Positions 4,366 to 37,278 of a stretch of DNA of 64,000 nucleotides are shown here, one piece after another. The position numbers and the translations under genes are program-made. The DNA is from a virus. How positions within the stretch are numbered: position 1 is the stretch's first letter; every line of letters starts with the position of its first letter. The notes below the pieces were generated by a model that saw only the letters and a list, made by a program, of their open reading frames with translations, did not search any database and was not told the origin of the DNA. The stretch lies in the IMG/VR virus record IMGVR_UViG_3300009537_000005, one strand, 5' to 3'.

Positions 4366-4406
4366 TTGACAAATTTACATTTTGATCCCAAAATATATGT
4401 GCAGGG
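4366..4406 (+). promoter_or_regulatory. sigma70-like promoter of family TTGACAAA-N17-CAAAATATA; drives the tRNA/Y RNA array
   Basis: cTTGACAaatttacattttgaTCCCAAAATATAtg; the same 40-nt architecture recurs at 11665, 38232(-), 51676(-) and 58940(-). Confidence 0.6.
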
Positions 4407-4478
4407 GCTAAAACCCCGGTTTGCCCGATAAAAAATTGCCCGGCTACCTAAATGGATGAACGCAGGGCGGGGCAACTC

Positions 4479-4550
4479 GCAGGGCTGATCTAACTGGAAT
4501 GAGCATTGTCTCCAAAACAATGAATCCTCGTTCGAATCGAGGGCCCTGTG
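4479..4550 (+). tRNA. tRNA-Trp (anticodon CCA)
   Basis: Acceptor GCAGGGC/GCCCTGT, anticodon arm ATTGT-CTCCAAA-ACAAT, T-arm CCTCG-TTCGAAT-CGAGG; weak D-stem. Confidence 0.6.
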
Positions 4551-4555
4551 CTTAT

Positions 4556-4626
4556 AGGCGTGTCGTCTAATGGCAAGACGCGAAGCTGTTAACTTCGTTA
4601 TCTAGGTTCGAGTCCTAGCGTGCCTG
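4556..4626 (+). tRNA. tRNA-Asn (GTT)
   Basis: Acceptor AGGCGTG/CGTGCCT, anticodon arm CGAAG-CTGTTAA-CTTCG, T-arm CTAGG-TTCGAGT-CCTAG. Confidence 0.7.
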
Positions 4627-4632
4627 CCTAAT

Positions 4633-4755
4633 GTGAGCCGAAGGGTCGTGGGTTATCATATCAGAAACGTAAAAGTCGCCTCTCGGGGTGAACATACGAA
4701 GGCAGGAGCCGTGATGCCCGGCCATCTCCCATCCCATTCCTTGCTCGCATAACTT
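4633..4755 (+). ncRNA. Y RNA-like ncRNA A (Ro60-binding-type helix; 3' end abuts tRNA-Ala)
   Basis: 5' box GAGCCGAAGGGTCGTGGGTTATCAT pairs with 3' box CCTTGCTC to give GAGC-[C bulge]-GA / UU-GCUC; a pyrimidine tract CCATCTCCCATCCCATTCC precedes the 3' strand; compare human Y RNA 5' GGUCCGAAGGUAGUGAGUUAUC. Confidence 0.65.
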
Positions 4756-4827
4756 GGGGAATTCATATTAACGGGAGTATGCCTCGTTTGCACCGAGGTC
4801 GTGTGGGTTCGAGTCCCTCATTCTCCA
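4756..4827 (+). tRNA. tRNA-Ala (TGC)
   Basis: Acceptor GGGGAAT/ATTCTCC, anticodon arm CCTCG-TTTGCAC-CGAGG, T-loop TTCGAGT; atypical D-arm. Confidence 0.55.
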
Positions 4828-4947
4828 CCTAGCCCGAGTGACGACGGTCACGAGCATATGCCGGGCAAGGTATTCGTCTCTAGCCGCAAATCGAGACGCC
4901 GCTGCGGAAACTGACCTGCCCCGTAGACGCGGTTTGTTAAGGTCCAC

Positions 4948-5019
4948 GCCCCTCTGGTGAAATGGATATCACTCGTGGCTTCGAACCACGCGTTGCGCGT
5001 TCAAGTCGTGCGGGGGGTG
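4948..5019 (+). tRNA. tRNA-Arg (TCG)
   Basis: Acceptor GCCCCTC/GGGGGGT (G-U pairs), D GTGA-loop-TCAC, anticodon arm CGTGG-CTTCGAA-CCACG, T-loop TTCAAGT. Confidence 0.65.
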
Positions 5020-5087
5020 CCTAATCGGGTCGGGGACATAGCGTTACCTGGCTAAAGTCCGCTGTGTCACAAACTTATCCGAAACAT

Positions 5088-5159
5088 GCCGATATAGCTC
5101 AGATGTAGAGCAGTCGCCTTGTAAGCGACAGTGCGTGGACTCGAGAACCACTATCGGCC
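5088..5159 (+). tRNA. tRNA-Thr (TGT) with a non-canonical T-loop
   Basis: Acceptor GCCGATA/TATCGGC, D GCTC-AGATGTA-GAGC, anticodon arm GTCGC-CTTGTAA-GCGAC; T-loop reads CTCGAGA instead of TTCRAAT. Confidence 0.55.
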
Positions 5160-5162
5160 CCA

Positions 5163-5234
5163 GCGGGCTTGGTGTTAGCAGTAGCACGACGGCCTTCCAA
5201 GCCGCAAGGACGAGTGCGAATCTCGTAGCCCGCT
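5163..5234 (+). tRNA. tRNA-Gly (TCC)
   Basis: Perfect acceptor GCGGGCT/AGCCCGC, anticodon loop CTTCCAA, T-arm ACGAG-TGCGAAT-CTCGT. Confidence 0.7.
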
Positions 5235-5363
5235 CTTAAGCAGAATTAGTTTATCTTAGTAAAACGGAGCCTTGCCAAGGCTCAGTGCGGGGAGCATGGC
5301 CCCGATTCTGCTCCTAAGATACTGTCTGAACAGGAGGTTCGAACCCTCCCAGCAGTATCTCAG

Positions 5364-5434
5364 TGCCTCTTAGTCTAGCGGCAGGACTGCGGTCTTTGGA
5401 ACCGTAAGGCGTGGTTCGAATCCACGAGAGGCAT
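5364..5434 (+). tRNA. tRNA-Gln (TTG)
   Basis: U1-A72 acceptor TGCCTCT/AGAGGCA (bacterial Gln-like), anticodon arm GCGGT-CTTTGGA-ACCGT, T-arm CGTGG-TTCGAAT-CCACG. Confidence 0.75.
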
Positions 5435-5437
5435 CCT

Positions 5438-5566
5438 ATGGTTTGGAACAGTCCTTTTGGTACGATTTATATCTCGCCCGACGTATATTTCGTTCTACTC
5501 GTCGTATGGTTATCTTTGCTTGTATATGGTGGAATGTACATCATGGGAGTGTTCGAAGATAAATAA
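5438..5566 (+). CDS. hypothetical 42-aa hydrophobic peptide (MVWNSPFGTIYISPDVYFVLLVVWLSLLVYGGMYIMGVFEDK) between tRNAs
   Basis: Uninterrupted ATG..TAA frame filling the gap between the two tRNA-Gln genes; predicted single TM helix; below the ORF-track size cutoff. Confidence 0.25.
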   Translation: MVWNSPFGTIYISPDVYFVLLVVWLSLLVYGGMYIMGVFEDK

Positions 5567-5639
5567 TCAGGGACGGTGTAATAGGTTGCACGTCCGGCTC
5601 TGAACCGGAAGATTGCAGGTTCGATCCCTGCTCCCTGAT
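5567..5639 (+). tRNA. tRNA-Gln (CTG)
   Basis: U1-A72 acceptor TCAGGGA/TCCCTGA, anticodon arm TCCGG-CTCTGAA-CCGGA, T-arm GCAGG-TTCGATC-CCTGC. Confidence 0.75.
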
Positions 5640-5718
5640 CCTAGAGACACACAACGGACAAGGCTAGAGGCCGCCGAAGGCGGGTGGGTAGCGAGTGGTT
5701 GACCAGTGTCTCTAACAA

Positions 5719-5791
5719 GCCGCTGTAAGATAAAGGACAGTCGCCAATGCTTCTAACATTGGGAGTGGTGGTTCGAATCCATCCAGCGGTG
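5719..5791 (+). tRNA. tRNA-Arg (TCT)
   Basis: Acceptor GCCGCTG/CAGCGGT, anticodon arm CAATG-CTTCTAA-CATTG, T-arm GGTGG-TTCGAAT-CCATC. Confidence 0.65.
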
Positions 5792-5793
5792 CC

Positions 5794-6025
5794 TATATCG
5801 GGGATTGGGAAAGTCTAGCTAATCCGCTCGCCTTGGACGCGAGAGATCGCTGGGGCAGAGCCAGCATCCCCGACCTAGCCCCCACCGGTACCAGTGAGGG
5901 GTGAGCCTAGTTTCGAGGCCAACTATTCTGTGGCTCAACACAATGTTGGTCCCTGCCTTGAGCAAGTAGGCTAGGCAAATGAAACCCGCCCGGCTGTAGC
6001 GTATGCGAAATTCGCCGGGCAATAC
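5794..6025 (+). ncRNA. unassigned structured spacer in the tRNA array (candidate ncRNA)
   Basis: 232 nt with no tRNA fold; nested inverted repeats (GGGGAT..ATCCCC; GCCCGGC-19nt-GCCGGGC); the overlapping minus-strand ORF 5819..6037 has no support. Confidence 0.25.
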
Positions 6026-6107
6026 GGAAGCGCCCAAAGGAGCGGTACGCGGTCTTGAAAACCGTGAGATGTGAAAGCATGTGGGAGTTCGAGTCTCTCC
6101 GCTTCCG
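6026..6107 (+). tRNA. tRNA-Ser (TGA), class II
   Basis: Acceptor GGAAGCG/CGCTTCC, anticodon arm GCGGT-CTTGAAA-ACCGT, long variable arm (about 18 nt), T-arm GGGAG-TTCGAGT-CTCTC. Confidence 0.75.
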
Positions 6108-6256
6108 CCTAAAGGGTCTATCTGCCCCGGCCCCTAGCTATGGGCACATAGCATAAGAGGTCGCATTCTAGAGGGGCTTGGATTGATCCTAGCCCGCTTC
6201 AAGAGATTGCACCATGTCAGAAAGGACAGAGAGCAAACCATTGGCGGGCTAAACGT

Positions 6257-6328
6257 GGGGATTGTAGTTTATGGAGTAAAACCCTGTCTGTGGAACAGGC
6301 GTAAAGGGTGCGAATCCCTTCAATCCTC
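6257..6328 (+). tRNA. tRNA-His (GTG) with encoded G-1
   Basis: Extra 5' G pairs with C73; acceptor GGGATTG/CAATCCT, anticodon arm CCTGT-CTGTGGA-ACAGG, T-arm AAGGG-TGCGAAT-CCCTT. Confidence 0.75.
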
Positions 6329-6334
6329 CCTCAT

Positions 6335-6406
6335 GTGCTTGTAGCTGAGACAGTCTAGCACTCGGTTGAAGCCCGAGAGACACTGGTGCAATTCCAGTCG
6401 AGCACA
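6335..6406 (+). tRNA. tRNA-Phe (GAA)
   Basis: Acceptor GTGCTTG/CGAGCAC, anticodon arm CTCGG-TTGAAGC-CCGAG, T-arm ACTGG-TGCAATT-CCAGT. Confidence 0.75.
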
Positions 6407-6411
6407 CCTAA

Positions 6412-6484
6412 GTCTCTGATGCGAATGGCAAGCGGACCACCTGCAAAGTGGTTACTAACGTGGGTTCGAATCCCACCAGAGACT
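6412..6484 (+). tRNA. tRNA-Cys (GCA)
   Basis: Acceptor GTCTCTG/CAGAGAC, anticodon arm ACCAC-CTGCAAA-GTGGT, T-arm GTGGG-TTCGAAT-CCCAC; 7-nt variable loop. Confidence 0.65.
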
Positions 6485-6505
6485 CCTTAAAACAAACGAA
6501 GAATT

Positions 6506-6577
6506 GGGTTTGTGGCGAAGTGGCATCGCACCAGCCTCTTAAGCTGTGAGTCGGTAGTTCGAATCTACCCAAGCCCA
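6506..6577 (+). tRNA. tRNA-Lys (CTT)
   Basis: Acceptor GGGTTTG/CAAGCCC, D GCGA-AGTGGCAT-CGC, anticodon loop CTCTTAA, T-arm GGTAG-TTCGAAT-CTACC. Confidence 0.7.
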
Positions 6578-6582
6578 CCTAT

Positions 6583-6663
6583 GCAGTTGTGGTGGAACGG
6601 CATACACGCTGGCCTCAAACCCCAGTGGGGAAACCCGTGCAGGTTCGACTCCTGTCAACTGCA
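6583..6663 (+). tRNA. tRNA-Leu (CAA), class II
   Basis: Acceptor GCAGTTG/CAACTGC, D GTGG-AACGGCAT-ACAC, anticodon loop CTCAAAC, 13-nt variable arm, T-arm GCAGG-TTCGACT-CCTGT. Confidence 0.65.
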
Positions 6664-6667
6664 CTAT

Positions 6668-6741
6668 GCAAGCGTGAAGGGAATGGCATACCTCGGTCAT
6701 TTAAAATGACTGGCTTGGTGGTTCGAGTCCACCCGCTTGTA
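6668..6741 (+). tRNA. tRNA with anticodon TAA (Leu codons UUR) but a short class-I variable loop
   Basis: Acceptor GCAAGCG/CGCTTGT, anticodon arm GGTCA-TTTAAAA-TGACT, 5-nt variable loop, T-arm GGTGG-TTCGAGT-CCACC. Confidence 0.55.
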
Positions 6742-6746
6742 CCTAT

Positions 6747-6821
6747 GCCCTCGTAGGAGAATTGGCATATCCGCACGGTTTAGGCCCGTGGTCAATAGTG
6801 GTTCGAATCCACTCGGGGGTA
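6747..6821 (+). tRNA. tRNA with anticodon TAG (Leu codons CUN) but a short class-I variable loop
   Basis: Acceptor GCCCTCG/CGGGGGT, anticodon arm CACGG-TTTAGGC-CCGTG, 6-nt variable loop, T-arm AGTGG-TTCGAAT-CCACT. Confidence 0.55.
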
Positions 6822-6890
6822 CCTTGTGTAAAGTAGTTTAGATTTTTCTTAACTCAAATCCATTTGAGTATAGTTTTCTTTACTCAACGC

Positions 6891-6965
6891 GCGCCGGTAG
6901 CTCCAATCGGTTAGAGCAGGAGTCTTTTAAACTCAAGGCTGGGGGTTCGAATCCCTCGCGGCGCA
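6891..6965 (+). tRNA. tRNA-Lys (TTT)
   Basis: D GCTC-loop-GAGC, anticodon loop CTTTTAA, T-arm GGGGG-TTCGAAT-CCCTC, acceptor GCGCCGG/GCGGCGC (7-66 mismatch). Confidence 0.65.
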
Positions 6966-6970
6966 CTCCT

Positions 6971-7044
6971 GCCATCATAGTCTAGTGGAAGGACGCAAGC
7001 CTTTCAAGCTTGAGGGCGGGGGTCAGTACCCCGTGATGGTACCA
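6971..7044 (+). tRNA. tRNA-Glu (TTC), CCA encoded
   Basis: Glu-like D-arm GTCTAGTGGAAGGAC, anticodon arm CAAGC-CTTTCAA-GCTTG, T-loop GTCAGTA (non-canonical), 3' TGATGGT-A-CCA. Confidence 0.65.
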
Positions 7045-7045
7045 T

Positions 7046-7117
7046 GCTCTTGTAGTCTAGTGGACAGGACGCTACCCTCTCAAGGTAGAAGCCGGGGTTC
7101 AACTCCCCGTGAGAGCA
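7046..7117 (+). tRNA. tRNA-Glu (CTC)
   Basis: GTCTAGTGGACAGGAC D-arm, anticodon arm TACCC-TCTCAAG? read as CTCTCAA loop (CTC), T-arm CGGGG-TTCAACT-CCCCG, acceptor GCTCTTG/TGAGAGC. Confidence 0.6.
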
Positions 7118-7359
7118 CCTAGGCACGGACCAACGCGGCGAAAGCCGAGGAAGCTCGGGACTACATAGGGCAACTCAGTACAGCCACAGAGACGAGTAAA
7201 GTGAAACGGGCCACGGCTGAGAGTTAGCAATCCCAAGTCGTGCGACAGTGACCCGCTGAGAAGCACAGGTAGGGAGCAGTCACTCGTAAAGAGGGACCGT
7301 CACTTAGTGGCGAGACAGATGTTGGTCGATAACAGAATCCCGGCTATAGTGCCTAACAC
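7118..7359 (+). ncRNA. unassigned 242-nt purine-rich structured spacer (candidate ncRNA)
   Basis: No tRNA fold and no ORF; GAAA-containing motifs (GCGGCGAAAGCCGAGG, GAGTAAAGTGAAACGGGCC); flanked by tRNA-Glu and tRNA-Ser. Confidence 0.2.
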
Positions 7360-7443
7360 GGATGGTTGGCAGAGAGGCTAATTGCACTCGGTTGCTAACC
7401 GAGCGGGGTAACACCCACATAGGTTCGAATCCTATACCATCCG
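7360..7443 (+). tRNA. tRNA-Ser (GCT), class II
   Basis: Perfect acceptor GGATGGT/ACCATCC, anticodon arm ACTCGG-TTGCTAA-CCGAG, long variable arm, T-arm ATAGG-TTCGAAT-CCTAT. Confidence 0.75.
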
Positions 7444-7463
7444 CCTGCGTTATCAAAAAGGCT

Positions 7464-7496
7464 AAAATTTCAAAATAACTTCTCTTTTTGGAGATA
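7464..7496 (+). promoter_or_regulatory. conserved upstream element (copy 2)
   Basis: AAAATTTCAAAATAACTTCTCTTTTTGGAGATA. Confidence 0.4.
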
Positions 7497-7498
7497 TA

Positions 7499-7726
7499 AT
7501 GTATGAAGTAAATATGTTTTATCCGGGCAAAGTCAGAAGTAATCTAGAAAAAGAATTTGACGATAAGATATACGGCCGTTGGGCATCCGGCTATAGCTTT
7601 GAAGATAATATCAGAGACATAGCGTTTAGCATTGAAACTCTAGACCTGGTACGAGATTTGATGGCCTACTTACCCTGTGACGGCTGGATTACGGTACGAC
7701 TGAGAGACGGAGTGGTAGAAGCATAA
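7499..7726 (+). CDS. hypothetical small protein embedded in the tRNA array
   Basis: ORF track; preceded by the conserved AAAATTTCAAAATA...CTTTTTGGAGA element plus SD. Confidence 0.35.
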   Translation: MYEVNMFYPGKVRSNLEKEFDDKIYGRWASGYSFEDNIRDIAFSIETLDLVRDLMAYLPCDGWITVRLRDGVVEA

Positions 7727-7736
7727 ATTACTACCC

Positions 7737-7770
7737 TAAAATTTCAAAATAGTCTCGCTTTTTCGGAGAG
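7737..7770 (+). promoter_or_regulatory. conserved upstream element (copy 3)
   Basis: AAAATTTCAAAATAGTCTCGCTTTTTCGGAGAG. Confidence 0.4.
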
Positions 7771-7776
7771 ATTTCC

Positions 7777-7980
7777 ATGCACAAGCAGAATAATCGTTGG
7801 ACTTGGAAAGAGTTTGGTAAGCGGATCAGCCCACACGCTGGATGGTTTAGTAGATGGAGACGTGGTGACGGGAGACTATGGAAAAAGAAGTTAAGTAAGG
7901 CGCGGAGACGAGCGTGGAAAGACCCACACCAACGGGGATTACTAAGTGTCGAGCGGGAATGTAATTGGAAGACATGGTAA
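7777..7980 (+). CDS. hypothetical basic (R/K/W-rich) small protein
   Basis: ORF track; preceded by a second copy of the same conserved upstream element. Confidence 0.35.
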   Translation: MHKQNNRWTWKEFGKRISPHAGWFSRWRRGDGRLWKKKLSKARRRAWKDPHQRGLLSVERECNWKTW

Positions 7981-8195
7981 TGCGTGGATTAGCATACAGA
8001 CGATATCAAATGGATCGTATCAAGAAGAAACGGGCCCACTACTGGGGTGGACACGCTGGTAGTGATCCAAGACTGTTGGGAATAGTTGCTAAAACACCAC
8101 ACCCTTGTAGTGGCTGGTGTTGTGGCAATCCACGGAAGCATTTTGGCGAGAAGACTCGTCAAGAAATAACATGGACGGCTGGCGATCTCGGTTGA
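7965..8195 (+). CDS. hypothetical small protein; 3' end would overlap tRNA-Ile
   Basis: ORF track; overlaps the 5' part of the tRNA called at 8173, so the true extent is uncertain. Confidence 0.2.
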   Translation: MEDMVMRGLAYRRYQMDRIKKKRAHYWGGHAGSDPRLLGIVAKTPHPCSGWCCGNPRKHFGEKTRQEITWTAGDLG

Positions 8196-8247
8196 ACGCG
8201 CTACTCTGATAAGGTAGTATAGGCAGGTTCGAATCCTGCGCCGTCTA
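8173..8247 (+). tRNA. tRNA-Ile (GAT)
   Basis: Acceptor GGACGGC/GCCGTCT, anticodon arm CTACT-CTGATAA-GGTAG, T-arm GCAGG-TTCGAAT-CCTGC. Confidence 0.65.
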
Positions 8248-8252
8248 CTTCT

Positions 8253-8326
8253 GGACTGGAAGCCAATTGGATTGAGGCATCACTCTTATAAGGTGAGTAT
8301 AGCTGGTTCGACTCCAGCCCGGTCTA
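8253..8326 (+). tRNA. tRNA with anticodon TAT (would read the AUA Ile codon)
   Basis: Acceptor GGACTGG/CCGGTCT, anticodon arm TCACT-CTTATAA-GGTGA, T-arm GCTGG-TTCGACT-CCAGC. Confidence 0.55.
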
Positions 8327-8331
8327 CCTAC

Positions 8332-8405
8332 GGCTTGGTAGCTCAATTGGATAGAGCGCCACACTGTCGATGTGGTGGTTGCGGGTTCAAGTCCCGTCCG
8401 AGTCG
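8332..8405 (+). tRNA. tRNA-Asp (GTC)
   Basis: D GCTC-AATTGGAT-AGAGC, anticodon arm CCACA-CTGTCGA-TGTGG, T-arm GCGGG-TTCAAGT-CCCGT. Confidence 0.7.
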
Positions 8406-8411
8406 CCTTTA

Positions 8412-8492
8412 TAGGGCCGAAGAGTAAGTGGGTTATCATACAGTTGACGTATACCTTCGGGTACTCCCACCCTCACAACTTGCCCTATACAT
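8412..8492 (+). ncRNA. Y RNA-like ncRNA B (short form; compensatory variant of the Ro60-binding helix)
   Basis: 5' box GGGCCGAAGAGTAAGTGGGTTATCAT pairs with 3' box CTCACAACTTGCCC to give GGGC-[C]-GA / UU-GCCC. The A-to-G change on the 5' strand is matched by T-to-C on the 3' strand relative to copies A, C and D. Internal GTACC-TTCG-GGTAC tetraloop hairpin; 3' end abuts tRNA-Val. Confidence 0.65.
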
Positions 8493-8566
8493 GCAGGCTT
8501 AGCTCAGTTGGATAGAGCACTTCTTTTACACAGAAGGTGTCGGGAGTTCGAGTCTCTCAGCCTGTA
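8493..8566 (+). tRNA. tRNA-Val (TAC)
   Basis: Acceptor GCAGGCT/AGCCTGT, D GCTC-AGTTGGAT-AGAGC, anticodon arm CTTCT-TTTACAC-AGAAG, T-arm GGGAG-TTCGAGT-CTCTC. Confidence 0.75.
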
Positions 8567-8573
8567 CCTATAT

Positions 8574-8741
8574 GTGAGCCGACGGTAACAGGGTTCTCGT
8601 CCTTATCAGGAGGAATTCTGAATGCGGGTAACCTGCTATAGTGGTTAAAGTGATGACTAGATCGGGCCCTTATGCTGGTCCGACAACGAAAACATTGCGG
8701 GTCTTGGACCTTCCCCTGGCCACAACTTGCTCACACAACAT
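8574..8741 (+). ncRNA. Y RNA-like ncRNA C (long form, about 168 nt)
   Basis: 5' box GAGCCGACGGTAACAGGGTTCTCGTCCTTATC and 3' box CCTTCCCCTGGCCACAACTTGCTCACACAACAT pair as GAGC-[C]-GA / UU-GCUC; 3' end abuts tRNA-Met. Confidence 0.55.
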
Positions 8742-8815
8742 GCCGAATAGGCCAATTGGATAGGCACCCGTCTCATTAACGGGGTTGTGTGGTTCGATTC
8801 CACAATTCGGTACCA
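8742..8815 (+). tRNA. tRNA-Met or Ile2 (CAT), CCA encoded
   Basis: Acceptor GCCGAAT/ATTCGGT-A-CCA, anticodon arm CCCGT-CTCATTA-ACGGG, T-arm TGTGG-TTCGATT-CCACA; no initiator signature. Confidence 0.7.
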
Positions 8816-8886
8816 CGCGGGGTTGAGGAGCGGCTCCTCCGTAGGCTCATAACCTACTCACGTCGGTTCGAATCCGACCCCCGCTA
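8816..8886 (+). tRNA. second CAT-anticodon tRNA (Met/fMet/Ile2 undetermined); starts directly after the CCA of the previous tRNA
   Basis: D GAGG-AGCGGCT-CCTC, anticodon arm GTAGG-CTCATAA-CCTAC (initiator-like loop sequence), T-arm GTCGG-TTCGAAT-CCGAC, acceptor CGCGGGG/CCCCGCT with a 1-72 mismatch. Confidence 0.5.
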
Positions 8887-8892
8887 CTTAGT

Positions 8893-9044
8893 ACGAGCCG
8901 ACGAGTAAGTGGGTTATCTTCTATCAAAAGAGAGGTCGTGAGTTCGAATCTCACCCCGTCTACCATAGACGGGTAGCTCAGTGGCAGAGCGCTGGCGAAA
9001 GCCTTCCCACTCTCATAACTTGCTCGTACAACATAACTCACAAT
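8893..9044 (+). ncRNA. Y RNA-like ncRNA D with a permuted tRNA-like domain (YrlA-type)
   Basis: 5' box GAGCCGACGAGTAAGTGGGTTATCTT; internal T-arm GTGAG-TTCGAAT-CTCAC; then CCCGTCT-ACCAT-AGACGGG (acceptor stem closed as a hairpin over a CCA-containing loop); then TA-GCTC-AGTGGCA-GAGC D-arm; then 3' box CCTTCCCACTCTCATAACTTGCTCGTACAACAT; followed by tRNA-Tyr. Confidence 0.7.
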
Positions 9045-9125
9045 GGCGGTGCGCCCGTGTGGGAACGGGGTCGGTCTGTAGAACCGATGGCATGCGCATA
9101 GGAAGTTCGATTCTTCACGCCGCCA
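9045..9125 (+). tRNA. tRNA-Tyr (GTA), class II
   Basis: Acceptor GGCGGTG/CGCCGCC, D CCCG-TGTGGGAA-CGGG, anticodon arm TCGGT-CTGTAGA-ACCGA, 12-nt variable arm, T-loop TTCGATT. Confidence 0.7.
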
Positions 9126-9182
9126 CCTAGACCAATTCGGGTCTATTATCCGAGTGGTTTTCTCCTCGGAAAGGAGGATTCA

Positions 9183-10826
9183 GTGACTTACACAAGGCAC
9201 TATAACGTACGAAAGACGCCACAGAACCAACCAATTCCGGGTAAGAACATGGTCGCCAACAGCGCTGGCGGTTTTGCGTTCGCCGTTGACGACTGGGCAC
9301 GTCTAAGACGTTTCTTAATTCTTGGCGCAGAAGGTGGTACATACTACATTGGCGAGAAGGAGCTAACAATCGGGAATGCCGAGGCTGTACTGCGTTGCAT
9401 CAAGGAAGATGGTATTGGTGTTGTTGACACGATTGTTGATGTCAGTAAGGGTGGTAGAGCACCAAAGAACGACCCTGCTCTATTTGCTTTAGCTATGTGT
9501 GCCGGATTAGGAAACGAAAACACGAAGCGCCATGCTCTTAACGCACTGCCAGAAGTAGCACGAATTGGTACTCACCTATTCACTTTCGCAGAGTACGTAC
9601 AAGCGTTTCGTGGCTGGGGACGGTCACTGCGCCGAGCCGTTGGTGAGTGGTACACAACCAAGGAACCAAAGCAACTAGCATACCAGCTAGTGAAGTATCA
9701 ACAGCGGAACGGTTGGTCACACCGTGACTTACTGCGACTATCTCACCCTAAGTCAGATGAGCACAACGTTCTGTTCAATTGGGTGACACAAGGACCGGGC
9801 GAAGGTACACACTTTGATTTGCCGGTAAATGAAGCCACTAGGTTAATTTACGCTTTCGAGAGGGCCAAGACAGCGGACGAAGCAGAGACTATTGAGTTGA
9901 TTATAGACTACGGTCTAACTCGTGAAATGATCCAGACAAAGCACCTAAACAGTGCGGATGTTTGGTTCGCTTTGCTACAGAACATGCCTATGACAGCTAT
10001 GATCCGGAACCTAGGCAAGATGACTCAGGTTGGGCTACTAGGTGACGGCCGATGGGACTCTAACAAGATTGTGCAGGACCGACTGCGAGACTCAGTGCGG
10101 TTGGCCAAGGCAAGAATTCACCCGCTGAATGTTTTAGTAGCTCTGAGAACCTACGATAGCGGTGGCGGATACCGAGGTAAGTTAGTCTGGAATCCGTCGC
10201 GAGACATTGTGAGCGCACTGAATGACGCTTTCTACCTGGCGTTCGATGGAGTATACCCAACAGGCAGGCGGTTTGTGTTGGGCGTGGACGTGAGCAGTAG
10301 CATGAGTGCTACGATAGGCAACACAGTGTTGTCTGCGGCAGAAGCCGCTGTGGCAATGGCGATGGTAATTCGACGAACGGAAGACCAAGCTATAATCCGA
10401 GGATTCGCTGGTGGCGAACGCCGGTATAGCGATCCCTTACAAGGTCCGAACTACGATGGTTTCATGGACTTAGGCATCAGTAGAGAGACACGACTAGAGT
10501 CAGCAATGGAACGGACACGAAACAAGAACTTCGGTCGGACAGACTGTGCTCTGCCTATGTTGTGGGCACTAAAGAACGAGGTCGAAGCTGACGTATTTTG
10601 TATTTTCACTGACTCAGAAACATGGGTAGGAAAAATTCACCCAGTACAGGCGCTACAACAGTACCGAGAAAAGATGAACATCCCGGCTAAGTTGATTGTT
10701 GTGGCGATGACAAGTAATGGCTTCAGCATCGCTGACCCAAACGATGGGGGCATGCTAGACGTGGTGGGATTTGATACATCAATTCCGCAAGTGATGGCGG
10801 ACTTCATTGGGATATCAGGCCCCTAA
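9183..10826 (+). CDS. rsr: Ro60/Rsr orthologue (TROVE domain plus C-terminal vWA domain with a MIDAS motif)
   Basis: N-terminal WARLRRFLILGAEGGTYYIGEKELTIGNAEAVLRCIKEDG...PALFALAMCAG matches Ro60 (human ...[39 protein letters not shown]...PMLFALA); C-terminal VLGVDVSSSMSA is a DxSxS MIDAS motif; GTG start after GGAAAGGAGG. Confidence 0.9.
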   Translation: MTYTRHYNVRKTPQNQPIPGKNMVANSAGGFAFAVDDWARLRRFLILGAEGGTYYIGEKELTIGNAEAVLRCIKEDGIGVVDTIVDVSKGGRAPKNDPALFALAMCAGLGNENTKRHALNALPEVARIGTHLFTFAEYVQAFRGWGRSLRRAVGEWYTTKEPKQLAYQLVKYQQRNGWSHRDLLRLSHPKSDEHNVLFNWVTQGPGEGTHFDLPVNEATRLIYAFERAKTADEAETIELIIDYGLTREMIQTKHLNSADVWFALLQNMPMTAMIRNLGKMTQVGLLGDGRWDSNKIVQDRLRDSVRLAKARIHPLNVLVALRTYDSGGGYRGKLVWNPSRDIVSALNDAFYLAFDGVYPTGRRFVLGVDVSSSMSATIGNTVLSAAEAAVAMAMVIRRTEDQAIIRGFAGGERRYSDPLQGPNYDGFMDLGISRETRLESAMERTRNKNFGRTDCALPMLWALKNEVEADVFCIFTDSETWVGKIHPVQALQQYREKMNIPAKLIVVAMTSNGFSIADPNDGGMLDVVGFDTSIPQVMADFIGISGP

Positions 10827-10834
10827 ACAGTGAT

Positions 10835-10865
10835 CCCGGCACCCAGCCGGGGTCATTCTCTTTTG
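10835..10865 (+). terminator. candidate intrinsic terminator after rsr
   Basis: CCCGGC-ACCCA-GCCGGG hairpin followed by GTCATTCTCTTTTG. Confidence 0.35.
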
Positions 10866-10878
10866 AAAGGAGAGAACA

Positions 10879-11076
10879 ATGTCCAAGACAACCGTGTGTA
10901 TTAAAGCGACTATCTATATTGATGTAGATGTTCCTCACTCTATTGTGGAGGTTGCGACAACGCTTGGTGAATTTCCTGTAGATCAGAAGCTACGAGAAGT
11001 ACTAAAAGATTCACTGGTTCTAATTGTGGATTGGGAAGACGCAGAGGTCGTGGCCCTCTTGTCACAGGACGAATAG
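10879..11076 (+). CDS. hypothetical small protein
   Basis: ORF track; SD GAAAGGAGAGAA upstream. Confidence 0.3.
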   Translation: MSKTTVCIKATIYIDVDVPHSIVEVATTLGEFPVDQKLREVLKDSLVLIVDWEDAEVVALLSQDE

Positions 11077-14168: not shown

Positions 14169-14959
14169 CTAGGGTAATAGATAGCCCATCGGCAGGAACA
14201 AGAGGAGACGGAACGGTTAAGGTTGTGGACAATCATAACGTTCGAATTGTAATCGTAGACAAGGAAAAGAAGTCACACGAATTCAATCTGACTTACGACC
14301 AAGGCGTCAACATGGTAAGTATTGGCGACTGGCCTCTTCAGTCCATTGAGGATGTAAACATCAAGATGACGCCAGACTTGGACGACATTGAGACGATTAG
14401 TCCACGTAACGGAGTCTTCTACGTAGAGTTTGATGTGTTTGGCGCAGAGCCAGGCAAGCTCCCCACAATTAGGTACAAAGAAGAGGGCAAACCATTCCCA
14501 GCCGCCAAGTGGGAGAACCCGGAGCGTTACCTGAGCTATCCGCTGTACAAGATTTTGGCAGTCGGACCATACCCAGATGACAGTCCGTACATTGGTATGA
14601 CCATCATGGACTTCCTAACATACGAGTGGGAATGGGACGAGAACCTAGAAGAGTGGCTGATCGTTGGCAGTAAGCGCCGAAAGTGGCACGAACACTTACT
14701 ATCATTCCTGGATGTGTTTGGGTATGACCTACAACACGACACACTAGGGATGGGAGAAATGTACGATGCTGGCGGCCCCGCCGAAATTCCCAACATTCTG
14801 CCGGAACTGGAAGGTATTTTGCAAGAACGAGGACGACTAGCAATTGTAGAGATGGAGAATGGTTGGATACAGTCTGACTCAATTAAGCGAGCCCAGGCCG
14901 GAATGACAAAAGAAAGACTTCGGAGCATTGTTAGCGGCGACGAAGGCCAGCCAGAGTAA
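14165..14959 (+). CDS. hypothetical protein
   Basis: ORF track; ATGA overlap with the helicase. Confidence 0.45.
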   Translation: MTRVIDSPSAGTRGDGTVKVVDNHNVRIVIVDKEKKSHEFNLTYDQGVNMVSIGDWPLQSIEDVNIKMTPDLDDIETISPRNGVFYVEFDVFGAEPGKLPTIRYKEEGKPFPAAKWENPERYLSYPLYKILAVGPYPDDSPYIGMTIMDFLTYEWEWDENLEEWLIVGSKRRKWHEHLLSFLDVFGYDLQHDTLGMGEMYDAGGPAEIPNILPELEGILQERGRLAIVEMENGWIQSDSIKRAQAGMTKERLRSIVSGDEGQPE

Positions 14960-16616
14960 GGAAATGAGAGAGCTTCCACGCGAGGCGAAACCCAATGAAT
15001 TGGTCAGCATCGACATCGAAATGTTTGGAATGTCAAAACCACATCGAGCAGACGGAACATTCGCTTCGATGTCGATTGCGTACCCCAATGGTGACGCTTA
15101 TTTGGTTACTGACGAACAACGAATTCGACCCGCACTTGACCGGATCAATCCGGGCGTGTGGGTTATGCAAAATGCCTTATTCGACCTGCGTATACTGCGG
15201 CGCTATACAGAAGTTTCCCAACGATTCGTTCACGATACAATGGTGGTCGAGCAGGACCTCTTTGGCGGGTGGTATAGTAGGTTTGATTTACAAAATTTGG
15301 CTCGTCGCTGGCTTGGCCTTTATGTCGATAAAAACATCCGTAAAAAATTTGAAAAGACGTCTGTCCTAACACCAGAGATGAAACAGTATTCTTTGGACGA
15401 CGCCATCTATACTGTACGGGTGGCGCAAAAGCAAAGGGAATATATTTACAAAGTATATGACGGAGAAATACCGTGGTACACAGAGATTGACGAACCCGCA
15501 ATTTGGGCCATTCTGGATATGCAACCAATCCCAGTAGATGTAGACGGATGGATTGCTTATGCAAAGACCAAAACAGCCGAAGCACTTGAGAGACAAGAGG
15601 CAATTGGTTTTAACGTCAACTCCCACAAGATTGTTAAGATAGAAATAGAAACACTACTTGGACGTAGAATCAAGAACACGAACGAGAAGAAGACATTAAC
15701 ACCACTGTTAATGAAGTTAGACTCAGAACATCCGGCGGCACTGTTTATTCGAGAAGTCATAGCAGTGAGGAAATTACGAAAGGCTGCTGATACGTACGGT
15801 ATGTCGTGGTTAAAGGATGTAGAGGATGGTCTAGTCTATCCATCGTGGTGGATAACGGGCGCAGAAACGGGACGAATGGCGTGCTCTGATCCTAACATGC
15901 AGAATGTACCAGTGCGGACAGACCCAACGTATAGAACATTCTTCCCGGCCTTACCAGGCCACGTAGTGCAGGTATCAGATGTGTCTCAGCAAGAACCGGG
16001 GTTCAGTGCCCTATTGAGTGGAGACAGAGTGCTTCTAGACGAAATAGAGCGCGGAGTTAAGGGGCATCAAGTTACAGCCGAGCACTTCAATGTAGACTAT
16101 GATACCGGTAAGGCCATCAATCTTGCATTAAACTACGGAATGACGGGATATGGACTGTCTGCTACGGTTGGCATTTCAAAAGAAGCGGCCGAGGCCGGTA
16201 TTCTAAAAAGAGACCGCCACTATCGAACGATGACGGCGTGGCGCAAGAAGAAAATTAGCGAGGCTAGACGTACTTATCATGTACGCACAGTGACAGGACG
16301 ACCGGTATGGGTAAATCCCTACAATCAAAGTGGACAGTGGGAACGTAACGCACAAAATGGTCCTATTCAAGGGTCGGCGGCAGACCACACCAAGTTAGCT
16401 TTAGTAAATTTACATCAGAAGTGCAAGAAAGAAGGGTTACCATTCATGGTGACACACGTAGTACATGACGAGATAGTTCAGCAGGCACCGCTGCCGAAAG
16501 ACAAGTTGTATGCTAGTACGATGAAGGAAGCGTGGGACAAATCTAGTCAGAGACTAGCACCGGGAATAAACATCACCGCCAATATAGTACAAGGAGAAAC
16601 GTGGGGGGTGAAATGA
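14928..16616 (+). CDS. family A DNA polymerase (PolA-like) with an N-terminal 3'-5' exonuclease
   Basis: Exo I SIDIEMFG; Pol motif A RRWLGLYVDKN-like; motif B KAINLALNYGMTGYGLS; motif C VVHDEIV. Confidence 0.85.
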   Translation: MLAATKASQSKEMRELPREAKPNELVSIDIEMFGMSKPHRADGTFASMSIAYPNGDAYLVTDEQRIRPALDRINPGVWVMQNALFDLRILRRYTEVSQRFVHDTMVVEQDLFGGWYSRFDLQNLARRWLGLYVDKNIRKKFEKTSVLTPEMKQYSLDDAIYTVRVAQKQREYIYKVYDGEIPWYTEIDEPAIWAILDMQPIPVDVDGWIAYAKTKTAEALERQEAIGFNVNSHKIVKIEIETLLGRRIKNTNEKKTLTPLLMKLDSEHPAALFIREVIAVRKLRKAADTYGMSWLKDVEDGLVYPSWWITGAETGRMACSDPNMQNVPVRTDPTYRTFFPALPGHVVQVSDVSQQEPGFSALLSGDRVLLDEIERGVKGHQVTAEHFNVDYDTGKAINLALNYGMTGYGLSATVGISKEAAEAGILKRDRHYRTMTAWRKKKISEARRTYHVRTVTGRPVWVNPYNQSGQWERNAQNGPIQGSAADHTKLALVNLHQKCKKEGLPFMVTHVVHDEIVQQAPLPKDKLYASTMKEAWDKSSQRLAPGINITANIVQGETWGVK

Positions 16617-36048: not shown

Positions 36049-37278
36049 TTAGATGCCGATCACTTGTCGCTCTGCACCAACTTCCAGACGGAACAATCTA
36101 TTCTCGGCTGGTCGGCCGAAGCCGATGATGTGTCGCCAACCCAAGGTTCGGAACTGCTTCAGTGTACCGGTGTCATCCGGAGGGATGATCCGACCAAATT
36201 CACCTTCAGCGCCGTCATACACCTTGGCTAGAGAGTTAGCACCGAAGACTACAACGGCGTGTGCTTGGTTGTAGCTTTCTACGATGGCACCAGAACTGTA
36301 AGCGTAGTTTAGTCCGCCGTTGGGTCCGGAACCGATGACGTTCATGCTTGTTGTCGTACCGTCTACTACGTAGAAGGTCTCGACTTCTGCATTTTCGCCA
36401 AGTGCTGTGGTTTCTCTGTTACCAATTGTGAAGTATGAGTTACTTGCAGATGAAATTGATGTGTTTAGATTGATAGATGTTGAGCCTGCGCTCACATCTG
36501 CGGATAGAGAAGCGCTCGTCGGACCTCGGCTTGATCCGCCGCCCATGAAGATTTTCGCGTTGTTGCTTTGAACGATCTTCACACCGGACATAGTCATGCC
36601 GATTTCGCCGTTTAGAACCACTTCTGGTCCGGCATCTCGATACTGTCCGATCAGGATAACTCCTGTATCTTCAGCCAAATCCATTACCACAACATCTCGC
36701 ATAACTGCCGCGAGACCTGCACCAACGCCCGCACCAACAGATGGAATCTTAGGTGCCGCCGACAAGAATGCCGCCGCGTTGTATAGCAGGGCAGGTGTCA
36801 GTTGGTGAGATGATAATCCGGATCGGGCTGTACCAGTACCATATGCAACAGCAGAGCCCGCTATAGCCGCACTTCGTGCGACGAAGTCGATTGTCTGTGC
36901 TGCGTTGTCAGCCACCAATTCTGCCGCCGCCTGCTCTATCGGAACCTGTGATTGAGCCCGAGTTAGAAGACCAAGTTGTACGGCATTACCGTAGAAACTT
37001 GGGCTTACGTCGAAGCTCTGGTCAGCCAGCTGCACAGGAGAGATATCTACATACTCTGACCGTGCTGTGTTAGCTGGCGCTAGTGGGCTGAAGAACGGAA
37101 GTCGCAGACTTGAAAATCTGTTGCCGTCTTGTAGCACACCCTTCTCAGGAACGTAAGAGATAGGCGCTTGGGCATAAACATATTGTAGTGGCTGGCGCAA
37201 TTCATAGTTTCTTTGTAAGATGACAATAAGTGAGTCACCAAGTTCTGATTGGCCTGTAACAGCCATGTTTGCCTCCAA
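36049..37278 (-). CDS. major capsid protein candidate
   Basis: 409 aa directly downstream of the scaffold-like gene, followed by a hairpin; composition consistent with an HK97-fold capsid protein. Confidence 0.5.
   Translation of the reverse strand: MEANMAVTGQSELGDSLIVILQRNYELRQPLQYVYAQAPISYVPEKGVLQDGNRFSSLRLPFFSPLAPANTARSEYVDISPVQLADQSFDVSPSFYGNAVQLGLLTRAQSQVPIEQAAAELVADNAAQTIDFVARSAAIAGSAVAYGTGTARSGLSSHQLTPALLYNAAAFLSAAPKIPSVGAGVGAGLAAVMRDVVVMDLAEDTGVILIGQYRDAGPEVVLNGEIGMTMSGVKIVQSNNAKIFMGGGSSRGPTSASLSADVSAGSTSINLNTSISSASNSYFTIGNRETTALGENAEVETFYVVDGTTTSMNVIGSGPNGGLNYAYSSGAIVESYNQAHAVVVFGANSLAKVYDGAEGEFGRIIPPDDTGTLKQFRTLGWRHIIGFGRPAENRLFRLEVGAERQVIGI

What the first reader, a model, noticed from the sequence alone, without database searches (positions are those of the whole stretch)
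8412..8492. Compensatory base change in copy B supports the Ro60-binding helix
Copies A, C and D read 5' GAGC-C-GA with 3' UU-GCUC. Copy B reads 5' GGGC-C-GA with 3' UU-GCCC. The A-to-G change on the 5' strand is matched by U-to-C on the 3' strand, so pairing and the bulged C are kept. This is covariation evidence for a selected RNA helix, not a DNA-level repeat or promoter.
Basis: seen in the sequence. Interest (0 to 1): 0.8.

Follow-up and report, generated by a model that had tools for sequence, protein, structure and literature searches.

The report
Phage Y RNAs: Ro60-binding stem confirmed
A phage carries four small Y RNAs wedged between its tRNA genes, just upstream of its Ro60 gene.

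Summary
Copies A (4631-4750), C (8573-8735) and D (8891-9029) read 5' GAGC-C-GA / 3' UU-GCUC. Copy B (8410-8489) reads GGGC-C-GA / UU-GCCC, so A-U becomes G-C and the bulged C is kept.

A model built from the stems finds only these four sites in the 64-kb window. It also finds about 370 further modules next to Ro60 genes in viral, bacterial and metagenomic loci, almost all on the Ro60 strand. In every set 93-95% of cells pair, against 64-72% when shuffled. In a structure-blind mutual-information test it ranks 7th of 2016 column pairs.

The bulged C, the following G and a UUAYC motif are nearly invariant. The ORF at 9183-10826 is a Ro60 homologue, and copy D carries a YrlA-type tRNA-like domain.

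Phage Y RNAs are already published, so this is a new member of a known kind. The unusual points are:
- All four modules exactly fill tRNA-tRNA spacers.
- Both strands of the metazoan-type helix are conserved.
- A 240-nt RNase P-like RNA sits in the same tRNA array.

The parts
4631..4750 (+). Y RNA module A. Terminal helix 4631-4638 / 4743-4750 (8 bp, including U4634.G4747), bulged C4639, G4640.U4742, A4641-U4741. It has its own 73-nt inner domain.
   Evidence: Sequence. The fold closes the terminal helix. Model R2 scores 50.0 bits, E 2.1e-9. The inner domain has no significant similarity to other loci.
8410..8489 (+). Terminal helix 8410-8417 / 8482-8489, bulged C8418, G8419.U8481, A8420-U8480. 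Middle helix 8422-8424 / 8472-8474. Upper helix 8428-8432 / 8466-8470, followed by UUAUC at 8433-8437.
   Evidence: Sequence. R2 scores 63 bits, E 1.1e-12. Full-length sub-threshold matches to nematode sbRNA RF01656 (25.3 bits) and to Y_RNA RF00019 (15.2 bits).
8573..8735 (+). Y RNA module C. Terminal helix 8573-8579 / 8729-8735 (7 bp), bulged C8580, G8581.U8728, A8582-U8727. Upper helix CAGGG/CCCUG carries two compensated changes relative to GUGGG/CCCAC in B and D. The inner domain is large (~118 nt).
Evidence: Sequence, fold. R2 scores 33.4 bits, E 3.1e-5 at 8572-8736.
8891..9029 (+). Y RNA module D, YrlA type. Terminal helix 8891-8898 / 9022-9029, bulged C8899. tRNA-like domain: T arm 8938-8954, 7-bp acceptor-like stem 8955-8961 / 8967-8973 closed by the loop ACCAU, D arm 8976-8990.
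   Evidence: R2 scores 57.5 bits. Fold z-score -4.43. Rfam YrlA RF02553 scores 43.4 bits, E 6.5e-9 on the 161-nt stretch, over 8907-9015, with the T arm, acceptor-like stem and D arm aligned to the consensus. The D-arm string recurs in many bacterial Ro60 loci.
9183..10826 (+). Ro60 / Rsr homologue (547 aa), the presumed protein partner of the four modules.
   Evidence: Pfam vWA_Ro60 3.6e-64 and TROVE 1.8e-49. PDB matches: 1YVP Xenopus Ro60 465.8 bits, 9NEN human RO60 454.6 bits, 2NVO Deinococcus Rsr 367.2 bits. PHROG 850 RNA-binding protein.
4556..4829 (+). tRNA-Asn (4556-4628) and tRNA-Ala (4756-4829), which abut module A on both sides.
   Evidence: ARAGORN, Rfam tRNA, adjacency script.
8332..9127 (+). 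tRNA-Asp 8332-8407 | B | tRNA-Val 8493-8568 | C | tRNA-Met 8742-8815, tRNA-Met 8816-8887 | D | tRNA-Tyr 9045-9127. Each module fills one tRNA-tRNA spacer, leaving 2-4 nt before its helix and 3-15 nt after it.
   Evidence: ARAGORN, Rfam, adjacency script.
7120..7359 (+). Miniature RNase P RNA-like gene filling the tRNA-Glu | tRNA-Ser spacer. It is a candidate source of the endonuclease that would cut at the 5' ends of the tRNAs, and so at the 3' sides of the Y modules.
   Evidence: Rfam RNaseP_bact_a matches the full model (1-367) in 240 nt at 49.4 bits (gathering 100), E 1.4e-14. The specificity-domain segments are nearly absent and the core strings are kept.
4366..4394 (+). Promoter-like site (TTGACA-17-CAAAAT) ahead of the first tRNA of the array. 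It is a consensus match only.
10829..10857 (+). Terminator-like hairpin (12 pairs, then a T run) three bases after the Ro60 stop codon. It is a consensus match only.

Best explanation
The four modules are phage-encoded Y RNAs. In each, the 5' and 3' ends pair to form the conserved Ro60-binding stem. This stem is an 8-bp helix, a bulged C, then a G.U and an A-U pair, followed by an internal loop and two short helices that end in UUAYC. The far end of each RNA carries a different effector domain: a YrlA-type tRNA-like domain in D, a short hairpin in B, and lineage-specific domains in A and C.

Shown here:
- The helix is an RNA-level, strand-specific structure under selection.
- It is genetically linked to Ro60 in hundreds of loci.

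Inferred:
- The phage Ro60 (9183-10826) binds this stem through the bulged C and the 5' strand, as in the Xenopus Ro60-Y RNA complex.
- The modules are transcribed with the tRNA array and Ro60 as one unit, roughly 4395-10857.
- They are cut out by tRNA-processing enzymes: RNase P at the 5' end of the downstream tRNA, and a tRNA 3'-end nuclease after the upstream tRNA.
- Each Y RNA then tethers Ro60 to a different partner, such as host PNPase or a tRNA-binding factor, or gates its RNA-binding cavity.
For: - Sequence and folds of the four copies.
- The stem model hits only these four sites in the window.
- The same model finds 47 further modules in 30 viral Ro60 loci, all on the Ro60 strand. It finds 195 in 80 bacterial/archaeal loci, 191 on that strand, and 122 of 122 on that strand in 76 metagenome loci.
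- Pairing is 92.8%, 94.7% and 93.6%, against 64-72% when shuffled and 38-48% when the partner is slid. Covariation scores are 0.78, 0.63 and 0.76, against 0.21-0.25 shuffled and at most 0.15 slid.
- RNAalifold on a plain MAFFT alignment recovers the helix.
- APC-corrected mutual information on 183 short modules ranks the helix pairs 1-5 and 7 of 2016.
- The bulged C is kept in 49/51 and 148/150 modules, and G10 in 51/51 and 150/150. G10 pairs as a G.U wobble in 43/50 and 134/150, which would be an A.C mismatch on the other strand.
- The Ro60 ORF is confirmed.
- Copy D matches YrlA. B and D match the nematode Y-RNA homologues over their full length.
- The same model finds modules upstream of the Ro gene in Mycobacterium phage ET08, where YrlA was published (PMC4201824).
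- Literature: the bulged C9 is the primary Ro60 site (PMC4030889). All Y RNAs carry the Ro60 site in the terminal stem (bioRxiv 10.1101/312249). Yrn2-tRNAAsp-Yrn1 in Deinococcus is a polycistronic precursor (PMC4201824).
Against: - No expression, processing or binding data exist for this phage.
- The four modules fall below the curated Rfam thresholds: YrlA 43.4 against 69, sbRNA 25.3 against 38, Y_RNA 15.2 against 38.
- The large alignments were fitted by the covariance model, and the hits were selected by it, so part of the conservation is ascertainment. The structure-blind tests reduce this concern but use the same hit set.
- Published work holds that Ro60 mainly contacts the 5' strand and that the helix may be dispensable in bacteria. 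The helix could therefore be selected for reasons other than Ro60 contact.
- The promoter and terminator calls are consensus matches only.
Confidence: 0.87

Rival explanations
1. The helix is a real RNA structure, but its selected role is processing or stability and not Ro60 recognition. It would close the ends of a spacer RNA so that tRNA-processing nucleases release and spare it. Ro60 would recognise only the single-stranded 5' motif.
For: Published view that Ro60 mainly contacts the 5' strand and that only this strand is conserved across bacteria. The distal four pairs vary freely as long as they pair. Every module sits directly between tRNAs.
Against: The four pairs next to the bulge, the bulged C, G10 and both 3' U residues are conserved in sequence, not merely in pairing. 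Most related modules are not flanked by tRNAs yet keep the same helix. The helix type matches the mapped Ro60 site of metazoan Y RNAs.
Confidence: 0.08
2. The boxes are DNA-level elements, such as dispersed repeats, promoters or recombination sites, that happen to be inverted-complementary.
For: Four similar copies lie within 4.5 kb. The heptamer alone is not enriched in the window.
Against: Pairing is kept through changes on both sides while the sequence differs (B against D: five compensated pairs). G.U wobbles are conserved on one strand only. 122/122, 51/51 and 191/195 hits are on the Ro60 strand. The terminal-helix pairs take ranks 1-5 and 7 in mutual information.
Confidence: 0.02
3. The modules are decayed tRNA genes or tRNA-gene debris in a tRNA array, with no function of their own.
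For: They lie in a tRNA array. D contains T and D arms and gives a weak tRNA match (23.7 bits).
Against: A, B and C have no tRNA-like arms. The shared part is the non-tRNA stem, which is conserved and covaries across hundreds of loci that mostly lack nearby tRNAs.
Confidence: 0.02

Closest known systems
Bacterial and mycobacteriophage YrlA / YrlB Y RNAs (Chen et al. 2014, PMC4201824; Rfam RF02553)
   Same: They are encoded just upstream of Ro60/Rsr on the same strand, with two or more per locus. One has a circularly permuted tRNA-like domain (D here) and one is a short hairpin (B here). A and B carry the 5' motif GNCGAAN0-1G as GCCGAAG. My stem model also detects the two modules of phage ET08. 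The published M. smegmatis YrlA primer shows the same GUGAGCCG start.
   Different: Both strands of the bulged-C helix are conserved and covary here, whereas the literature states that only the 5' strand is conserved in bacteria. C and D read GCCGACG, which departs from the motif. There are four modules, each exactly filling a tRNA-tRNA spacer. D scores below the Rfam gathering threshold, and the Rfam model does not cover the terminal helix at all. In ET08 and Cashline the 3' box reads AUG, not UUG.
Metazoan Y RNAs and nematode stem-bulge RNAs (Rfam RF00019, RF01656)
   Same: The stem plan is the same: helix, bulged C at position 9, GA/UU, internal loop, upper helix. Shared strings are GG(U/G)CCGA, UGGGUUAUCAUA and CAACUUG (alignment). 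The phage Ro60 is closer to Xenopus and human Ro60 than to Deinococcus Rsr. A relative, L023:2123-2193, passes the sbRNA gathering score.
   Different: There is no RNA polymerase III terminator or oligo-U tail. The ends are defined by flanking tRNAs. The window copies score below the gathering thresholds (25.3, 24.1 and 15.2 bits). The effector domains are unrelated.
Yrl1 / Yrl2 of Thermus phage phiLo (PMC12135203, 2025)
   Same: They are phage-encoded Y RNA-like RNAs upstream of a phage Ro60. In that system they were shown to bind the phage Ro60 and to form a complex with host PNPase.
   Different: I did not compare the sequences here. phiLo has two RNAs, and the passages I read mention no flanking tRNAs. 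The phiLo Ro60 did not appear among the PDB sequence matches to this Ro60 at E<=0.001.
Deinococcus radiodurans Yrn2-tRNAAsp-Yrn1 precursor (PMC4201824, section 9)
   Same: Y RNAs and a tRNA are made as one polycistronic precursor upstream of rsr. This is the precedent for the processing route proposed here.
   Different: That case has one tRNA and two Y RNAs in a bacterium. Here four Y RNAs are interleaved with 26 or more tRNAs and an RNase P-like RNA in a phage.

Membership tests
Y RNA (general definition: Ro60-associated RNA with a terminal stem) | The 5' and 3' ends pair to form a long stem. | tested here: met
   All four fold with the terminal helix closed. Covariation supports three stacked helices.
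Y RNA (general definition) | Conserved helix with a bulged C (C9), followed by G-A paired to U-U. | tested here: met
   The bulged C is present in 4/4 window copies, 49/51 viral-set modules and 148/150 bacterial modules. G10 is invariant. The literature definition is in PMC4030889.
Y RNA (general definition) | Encoded with, or next to, a Ro60 orthologue. | tested here: met
   Ro60 ORF at 9183-10826. D ends 154 nt upstream of it, and A lies 4.4 kb upstream on the same strand.
Y RNA (general definition) | Physical binding to Ro60, and stabilisation by it. | not testable with these tools
   This needs EMSA, RIP or CLIP with the phage Ro60.
Metazoan Y_RNA, Rfam RF00019 | Score at or above the curated gathering threshold (38 bits). 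| tested here: not met
   B scores 15.2 bits, E 3.7.
Metazoan Y_RNA | Pol III transcript ending in an oligo-U tail bound by La. | tested here: not met
   No U tract follows any module. A tRNA starts 3-15 nt after each stem.
Nematode sbRNA, Rfam RF01656 | Score at or above the gathering threshold (38 bits). | tested here: not met
   B scores 25.3 bits and D 24.1 bits, both full-length. A relative in L023 scores 38.6.
YrlA, Rfam RF02553 | Score at or above the gathering threshold (69 bits). | tested here: not met
   D scores 43.4 bits, E 2.1e-7 to 6.5e-9 depending on the search space. A, B and C give no match.
YrlA (Chen et al. 2014) | tRNA-like domain with conserved T arm, closed acceptor-like stem and D arm. 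| tested here: met
   This holds for D only: T arm 8938-8954, acceptor-like stem 8955-8961 / 8967-8973, D arm 8976-8990, all aligned to the YrlA consensus.
YrlA (Chen et al. 2014) | 5' motif GNCGAAN0-1G. | tested here: inconclusive
   A and B read GCCGAAG, which fits. C and D read GCCGACG, with one departure.

The most novel reading that the evidence does not exclude
The phage carries a self-contained small-RNA cassette in one transcription unit (about 4395-10857). It would contain 26 or more tRNAs, a catalytic-domain-only RNase P ribozyme, four Y RNAs and Ro60. In this reading the Y RNAs have no promoters or terminators of their own and are released purely by tRNA punctuation. Module D, with a 7-bp acceptor-like stem and an encoded ACCA in its loop, would be cut by RNase P into a two-piece Y RNA with a tRNA-like CCA end. 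The wider clade, with both strands of the metazoan-type helix conserved, arrays of many modules per locus, and a Ro60 closer to animal Ro60 than to Deinococcus Rsr, would then mark phages as carriers of Ro60-Y RNA cassettes between lineages.
Probability: 0.25. Interest if true: 0.65.

Novelty: new member of a known kind. Interest (0 to 1): 0.36.

Why it matters
The result adds a clean, statistically strong case that the whole bulged-C helix of Y RNAs is under selection in phages and in many bacteria. This covers both strands, not only the 5' strand, and so qualifies a statement in the bacterial Y RNA literature.

It also provides a stem-only search model that recovered about 370 modules beside Ro60 genes. 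Many of these are short forms that the tRNA-domain-based Rfam YrlA model does not cover.

For phage biology, Y RNAs can be embedded in tRNA arrays, presumably maturing by tRNA processing. Here they sit beside an RNase P-like RNA, which suggests that some phages bring a linked tRNA-supply and RNA-surveillance toolkit.

Tried and rejected
- **Close relatives.** Megablast of 4400-10900 against 50,697 phage records found no match. Exact-sequence look-up of the Ro60 protein, with V or M as first residue, found nothing on record. The Ro60-based scans reached at most 58% identity over a partial 238-residue match (53% full length) in viral contigs, 57% in genome contigs and 54% in metagenome contigs. 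Orthologous copies of A-D from a close relative could therefore not be compared; the test rests on paralogues and more distant homologues.
- **Alignments and models.** The first MAFFT alignment of the stems put a gap inside B's helix (A1), so I re-made it (A2).
- **Curated thresholds.** At Rfam gathering thresholds the window gives only tRNAs.
- **Inner domains.** BLAST of the inner domains of A and C against all fetched loci found nothing significant, so their partners remain unknown.
- **Other phages.** Sinorhizobium phage Phosso has a Ro-like gene, but the model gave no hit within 5 kb at E<1.
- **RNA-repair partners.** I looked for RtcB, CCA-adding enzyme or PNPase among neighbouring ORFs and found only replication and lysis genes.
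- **Alternative readings.** DNA repeat, promoter and tRNA-debris readings were considered and rejected on strand bias, G.U wobbles and compensated changes.
- **Reviews.** Two reviews (PMC10870794, PMC6047535) were not held in the library.

Full report
**1. What is at the site**

The window is part of a phage genome. It encodes a large terminase subunit (49275-50996, minus strand), a major head protein (36049-37278, minus strand) and a DNA polymerase (14928-16616).

From 4479 to 9127 the plus strand carries an array of tRNA genes. ARAGORN of them, and Rfam adds two more at 5088-5159 and 5163-5234. Directly downstream, at 9183-10826, lies a 547-aa ORF with Pfam TROVE and vWA_Ro60 domains. This ORF matches Xenopus Ro60 (1YVP, 465.8 bits), human RO60 (454.6 bits) and Deinococcus Rsr (367.2 bits).

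- A: 4631-4750, between tRNA-Asn and tRNA-Ala.
- B: 8410-8489, between tRNA-Asp and tRNA-Val.
- C: 8573-8735, between tRNA-Val and tRNA-Met.
- D: 8891-9029, between tRNA-Met and tRNA-Tyr.

**2. The observation**

A, C and D have 5' GAGC-C-GA and 3' UU-GCUC. B has 5' GGGC-C-GA and 3' UU-GCCC. The pair in question is G8415-C8484 in B, A4636-U4745 in A, A8577-U8731 in C and A8896-U9024 in D.

The two strands read:

| Copy | 5' strand | 3' strand |
|---|---|---|
| A | AUGUGAGC | GCUCGCAU |
| B | UAUAGGGC | GCCCUAUA |
| C | UGUGAGC | GCUCACA |
| D | GUACGAGC | GCUCGUAC |

B and D have almost identical inner stems (GAGUAAGUGGGUUAUC ... CCCAC-CUCA-AACUUGC). Yet they differ at five of the eight terminal pairs, and every one of those changes is compensated. 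The upper helix of C (CAGGG/CCCUG) differs from that of B and D (GUGGG/CCCAC) by two more compensated changes.

All four RNAs fold with the terminal helix closed. D folds far better than shuffled controls, with z = -4.43.

**3. Is it more than chance?**

The 5' heptamer alone is not enriched in the window: 15 matches against 13.5 expected.

A covariance model of the stem alone (R1) was refined on its first hits to give R2. R2 hits exactly the four modules in 64 kb on both strands and nothing else at E<0.1. The scores are B 63 bits, D 57.5, A 50.0 and C 33.4.

**4. Homologues**

No close relative of this phage exists in the collections searched. Megablast found nothing. Ro60 identity to the query reached at most 58% over a partial 238-residue match (53% full length) in viral contigs, 57% in genome contigs and 54% in metagenome contigs.

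More distant Ro60 loci were plentiful, so I searched them with R2:
- Window plus 30 viral contigs: 51 hits, all on the Ro60 strand, mostly within 1.5 kb upstream of Ro60, and up to four per locus.
- 80 bacterial and archaeal genome contigs (Chloroflexota, Armatimonadota, Verrucomicrobiota, Planctomycetota and others): 195 hits at E<0.01, of which 191 are on the Ro60 strand and some loci have many copies.
- 76 metagenome contigs: 122 hits at E<0.001, all 122 on the Ro60 strand. Some of these contigs duplicate viral-set contigs.

The model also finds two modules upstream of the Ro gene in Mycobacterium phage ET08 and two in Gordonia phage Cashline. ET08 is one of the phages in which YrlA was published.

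**5. Covariation**

On the three model-aligned sets, pairing and covariation greatly exceed both controls:

| Set | Cells paired | Shuffled | Partner slid | Covariation score | Shuffled score | Slid score |
|---|---|---|---|---|---|---|
| Viral (A5) | 92.8% | 64.1% | 39.5-46.3% | 0.780 | 0.237 | at most 0.132 |
| Bacterial (A6) | 94.7% | 72.2% | 40.5-47.6% | 0.626 | 0.211 | at most 0.112 |
| Metagenome (A8) | 93.6% | 65.8% | 38.1-47.9% | 0.763 | 0.246 | at most 0.148 |

- A5: GC 34, AU 10, GU 6, unpaired 0.
- A6: GC 139, AU 9, GU 1, other 1.
- A8: GC 81, AU 24, GU 6, other 3.

G-C, the state in copy B, is therefore the common state. A-U, the state in A, C and D, is the minority state, with G.U intermediates such as all four modules of L003.

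These alignments are fitted to the model, so I ran two structure-blind checks.
- RNAalifold on a plain MAFFT alignment of 25 short phage modules recovers the terminal and upper helices.
- On a MAFFT L-INS-i alignment of 183 distinct short modules, I computed APC-corrected mutual information over all 2016 column pairs. The terminal-helix pairs take ranks 1-5 (B coordinates 8412-8487, 8413-8486, 8411-8488, 8417-8482, 8410-8489).

**6. RNA, not DNA, and a protein site, not only a stem**

The pair next to the bulge is a G.U wobble in 43/50, 134/150 and 101/114 modules. On the opposite strand this would be an A.C mismatch. Together with the strand bias, this excludes a DNA-level repeat.

Several nucleotides are conserved in identity, not merely in pairing:
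- the bulged C: 49/51 and 148/150;
- G10: 51/51 and 150/150;
- the 3' U opposite A11: 51/51 and 148/150;
- a UUAYC motif just after the upper helix, which is almost invariant.

A covarying helix combined with invariant unpaired or wobble nucleotides is the expected signature of a protein-binding site. Part of this conservation is ascertainment, because the hits were chosen by the model.

The literature defines the bulged C9 helix as the primary Ro60 site of Y RNAs (PMC4030889) and places the Ro60 site in the terminal stem of all characterised Y RNAs (bioRxiv 10.1101/312249). The histidine H187 that the review PMC4030889 calls essential for contact with Y RNAs aligns, by my count of the alignment, with a histidine in the phage protein. 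It is H188 in the KYQQRNGWSHRDLLRLSH stretch and is nearly invariant across the 12 phage Ro60s in alignment A4.

**7. Anatomy of the four RNAs**

All four share the stem and differ at the far end.
- D has a YrlA-type, circularly permuted tRNA-like domain. Its T arm is 8938-8954 (GUGAG-UUCGAAU-CUCAC). Its 7-bp acceptor-like stem is 8955-8961 / 8967-8973, closed by the loop ACCAU. Its D arm is 8976-8990. These align to the Rfam YrlA consensus at 43.4 bits, below the gathering score of 69.
- The Rfam YrlA match covers only 8907-9015, so that curated model does not include the terminal helix under discussion.
- B is a minimal 80-nt Y RNA. It aligns full-length to the nematode stem-bulge RNA family, the Y RNA homologues, sharing UGGGUUAUCAUA and CAACUUG, at 25.3 bits against a gathering score of 38.
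- A and C carry inner domains with no detectable similarity elsewhere.

**8. How it most likely works**

Shown:
- The helix is a selected, strand-specific RNA helix.
- It is linked to Ro60 in hundreds of loci.
- D is of the YrlA type.

Inferred:
- The phage Ro60 binds the stem.
- Each module tethers or gates Ro60 differently through its own far-end domain, as described for Deinococcus, Salmonella and phage phiLo.
- The modules mature by tRNA processing.

Several observations support the processing route. Each stem starts 2-4 nt after the upstream tRNA's encoded CC and ends 3-15 nt before the next tRNA. A promoter-like site lies at 4366-4394, and a terminator-like hairpin lies at 10829-10857, just after the Ro60 stop codon. 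Both are consensus matches only. The Deinococcus Yrn2-tRNAAsp-Yrn1 precursor is a direct precedent.

Abutment to tRNAs occurs in a minority of relatives. In L013 and L029 a module is followed by tRNA-Met, and about 12 of 150 bacterial modules abut a tRNA. The window, with four of four modules flanked on both sides, is the extreme case.

M. smegmatis YrlA, which has a 7-bp acceptor stem, is cut by RNase P and receives CCA. D has the same 7-bp stem with ACCA already encoded, so a two-piece form is plausible but untested.

**9. Comparison with what is known, and novelty**

Y RNAs next to phage Ro60 genes have been published. [quoted passage not shown] Yrl1 and Yrl2 of Thermus phage phiLo bind the phage Ro60 and host PNPase (PMC12135203). 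In addition, 355 deposited phage genomes carry a Ro-like protein. The finding is therefore a new member of a known kind.

Three points go beyond the literature I could read:
- Both strands of the metazoan-type helix are conserved and covary in this clade, whereas it has been stated that only the 5' strand is conserved in bacteria.
- Four modules are interleaved with tRNAs.
- Arrays of many stem-only modules sit beside bacterial Ro60 genes.

Within a locus, all paralogues often share a locus-specific variant of the four Ro60-proximal pairs. Examples are GGGU/AUCY in all four modules of L027, GRGG/CYUC in all four of L024, and G.U in all four of L003. This suggests co-evolution with the cognate Ro60, or concerted evolution of the paralogues.

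**10. Verdict**

The helix is real and belongs to a known class. Ro60 binding remains an inference from homology and gene linkage. Interest is moderate to low for the helix itself. The side observations, namely the RNase P-like RNA in the array and the tRNA-punctuated layout, are the more unusual features.

Noticed in passing
window 7120-7359 (+): A 240-nt sequence exactly fills the tRNA-Glu(ctc) | tRNA-Ser(gct) spacer. It matches the whole bacterial type-A RNase P RNA model (positions 1-367) at 49.4 bits (gathering 100), E 1.4e-14. The specificity-domain segments are almost absent, while core strings such as GAGGAAgcUCGGG, AUAGGGCA, CACAGA, AGCAA, GGUAGG and AACAGAAUCC are kept. It is a candidate phage-encoded, catalytic-domain-only RNase P RNA. 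I found no paper on phage-encoded RNase P in the library.
   Followed up: partly
L128 7338-7632 (-), IMGVR_UViG_3300031576_000015 (94 kb): Another viral contig has a reduced 295-nt RNase P RNA (156 bits, above the gathering score) embedded in an array of about 40 tRNA genes on the same strand. RNase P RNA genes inside phage tRNA arrays are therefore not unique to this window.
   Followed up: partly
window 4479-9127, 3' flanks of the tRNA genes: Of the 27 tRNAs I checked by Rfam coordinates (26 in the array, plus tRNA-Glu at 62596-62668), 19 are followed by CCU and 13 by CCUA. Only three have an encoded CCA. The 3' ends would need trimming and CCA completion, and CCUA may be a processing signal.
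   Followed up: partly
L031-L110 (for example L104, L077, L080, L108): Bacterial Ro60 loci carry arrays of stem-bulge Y RNA modules on the Ro60 strand, far more than the 'at least two' described for characterised species. There are 195 hits in 80 loci; among the best 150 hits up to five fall in one locus, and the full list gives more for some loci.
   Followed up: partly
L027, L024, L003, L012 (viral Ro60 loci): All paralogous modules within a locus share a locus-specific variant of the four pairs next to the bulged C, while the outer pairs differ between paralogues. This suggests co-evolution with the cognate Ro60 or concerted evolution.
   Followed up: no
L111 4854-4923 (Mycobacterium phage ET08, NC_013650.1 about 128337-128406): A short Y RNA-type module (35.8 bits) lies inside the annotated hypothetical CDS gp219 (locus 4776-4949), just upstream of the Ro gene. 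That CDS may be a mis-call over an RNA gene.
   Followed up: no
window 9183-10826: The phage Ro60 is more similar to Xenopus and human Ro60 (466 and 455 bits) than to Deinococcus Rsr (367 bits). A related phage module (L023:2123-2193) passes the Rfam gathering score of the nematode sbRNA family.
   Followed up: no
window 5793-6258, 4829-4948 and 5436-5567: These are long unassigned spacers inside the tRNA array. 6026-6106 gives a sub-threshold tRNA-Sec-like match (31.7 bits), and ARAGORN missed two Rfam tRNAs at 5088-5159 and 5163-5234. The spacers may hold further small RNAs.
   Followed up: no
window 7455-7498 and 7727-7776: A repeated AT-rich motif (CTAAAATTTCAAAATA...) precedes two small ORFs (7499-7726 and 7777-7980) that interrupt the tRNA array. 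A third small ORF follows at 7965-8195. None has a Pfam match.
   Followed up: no
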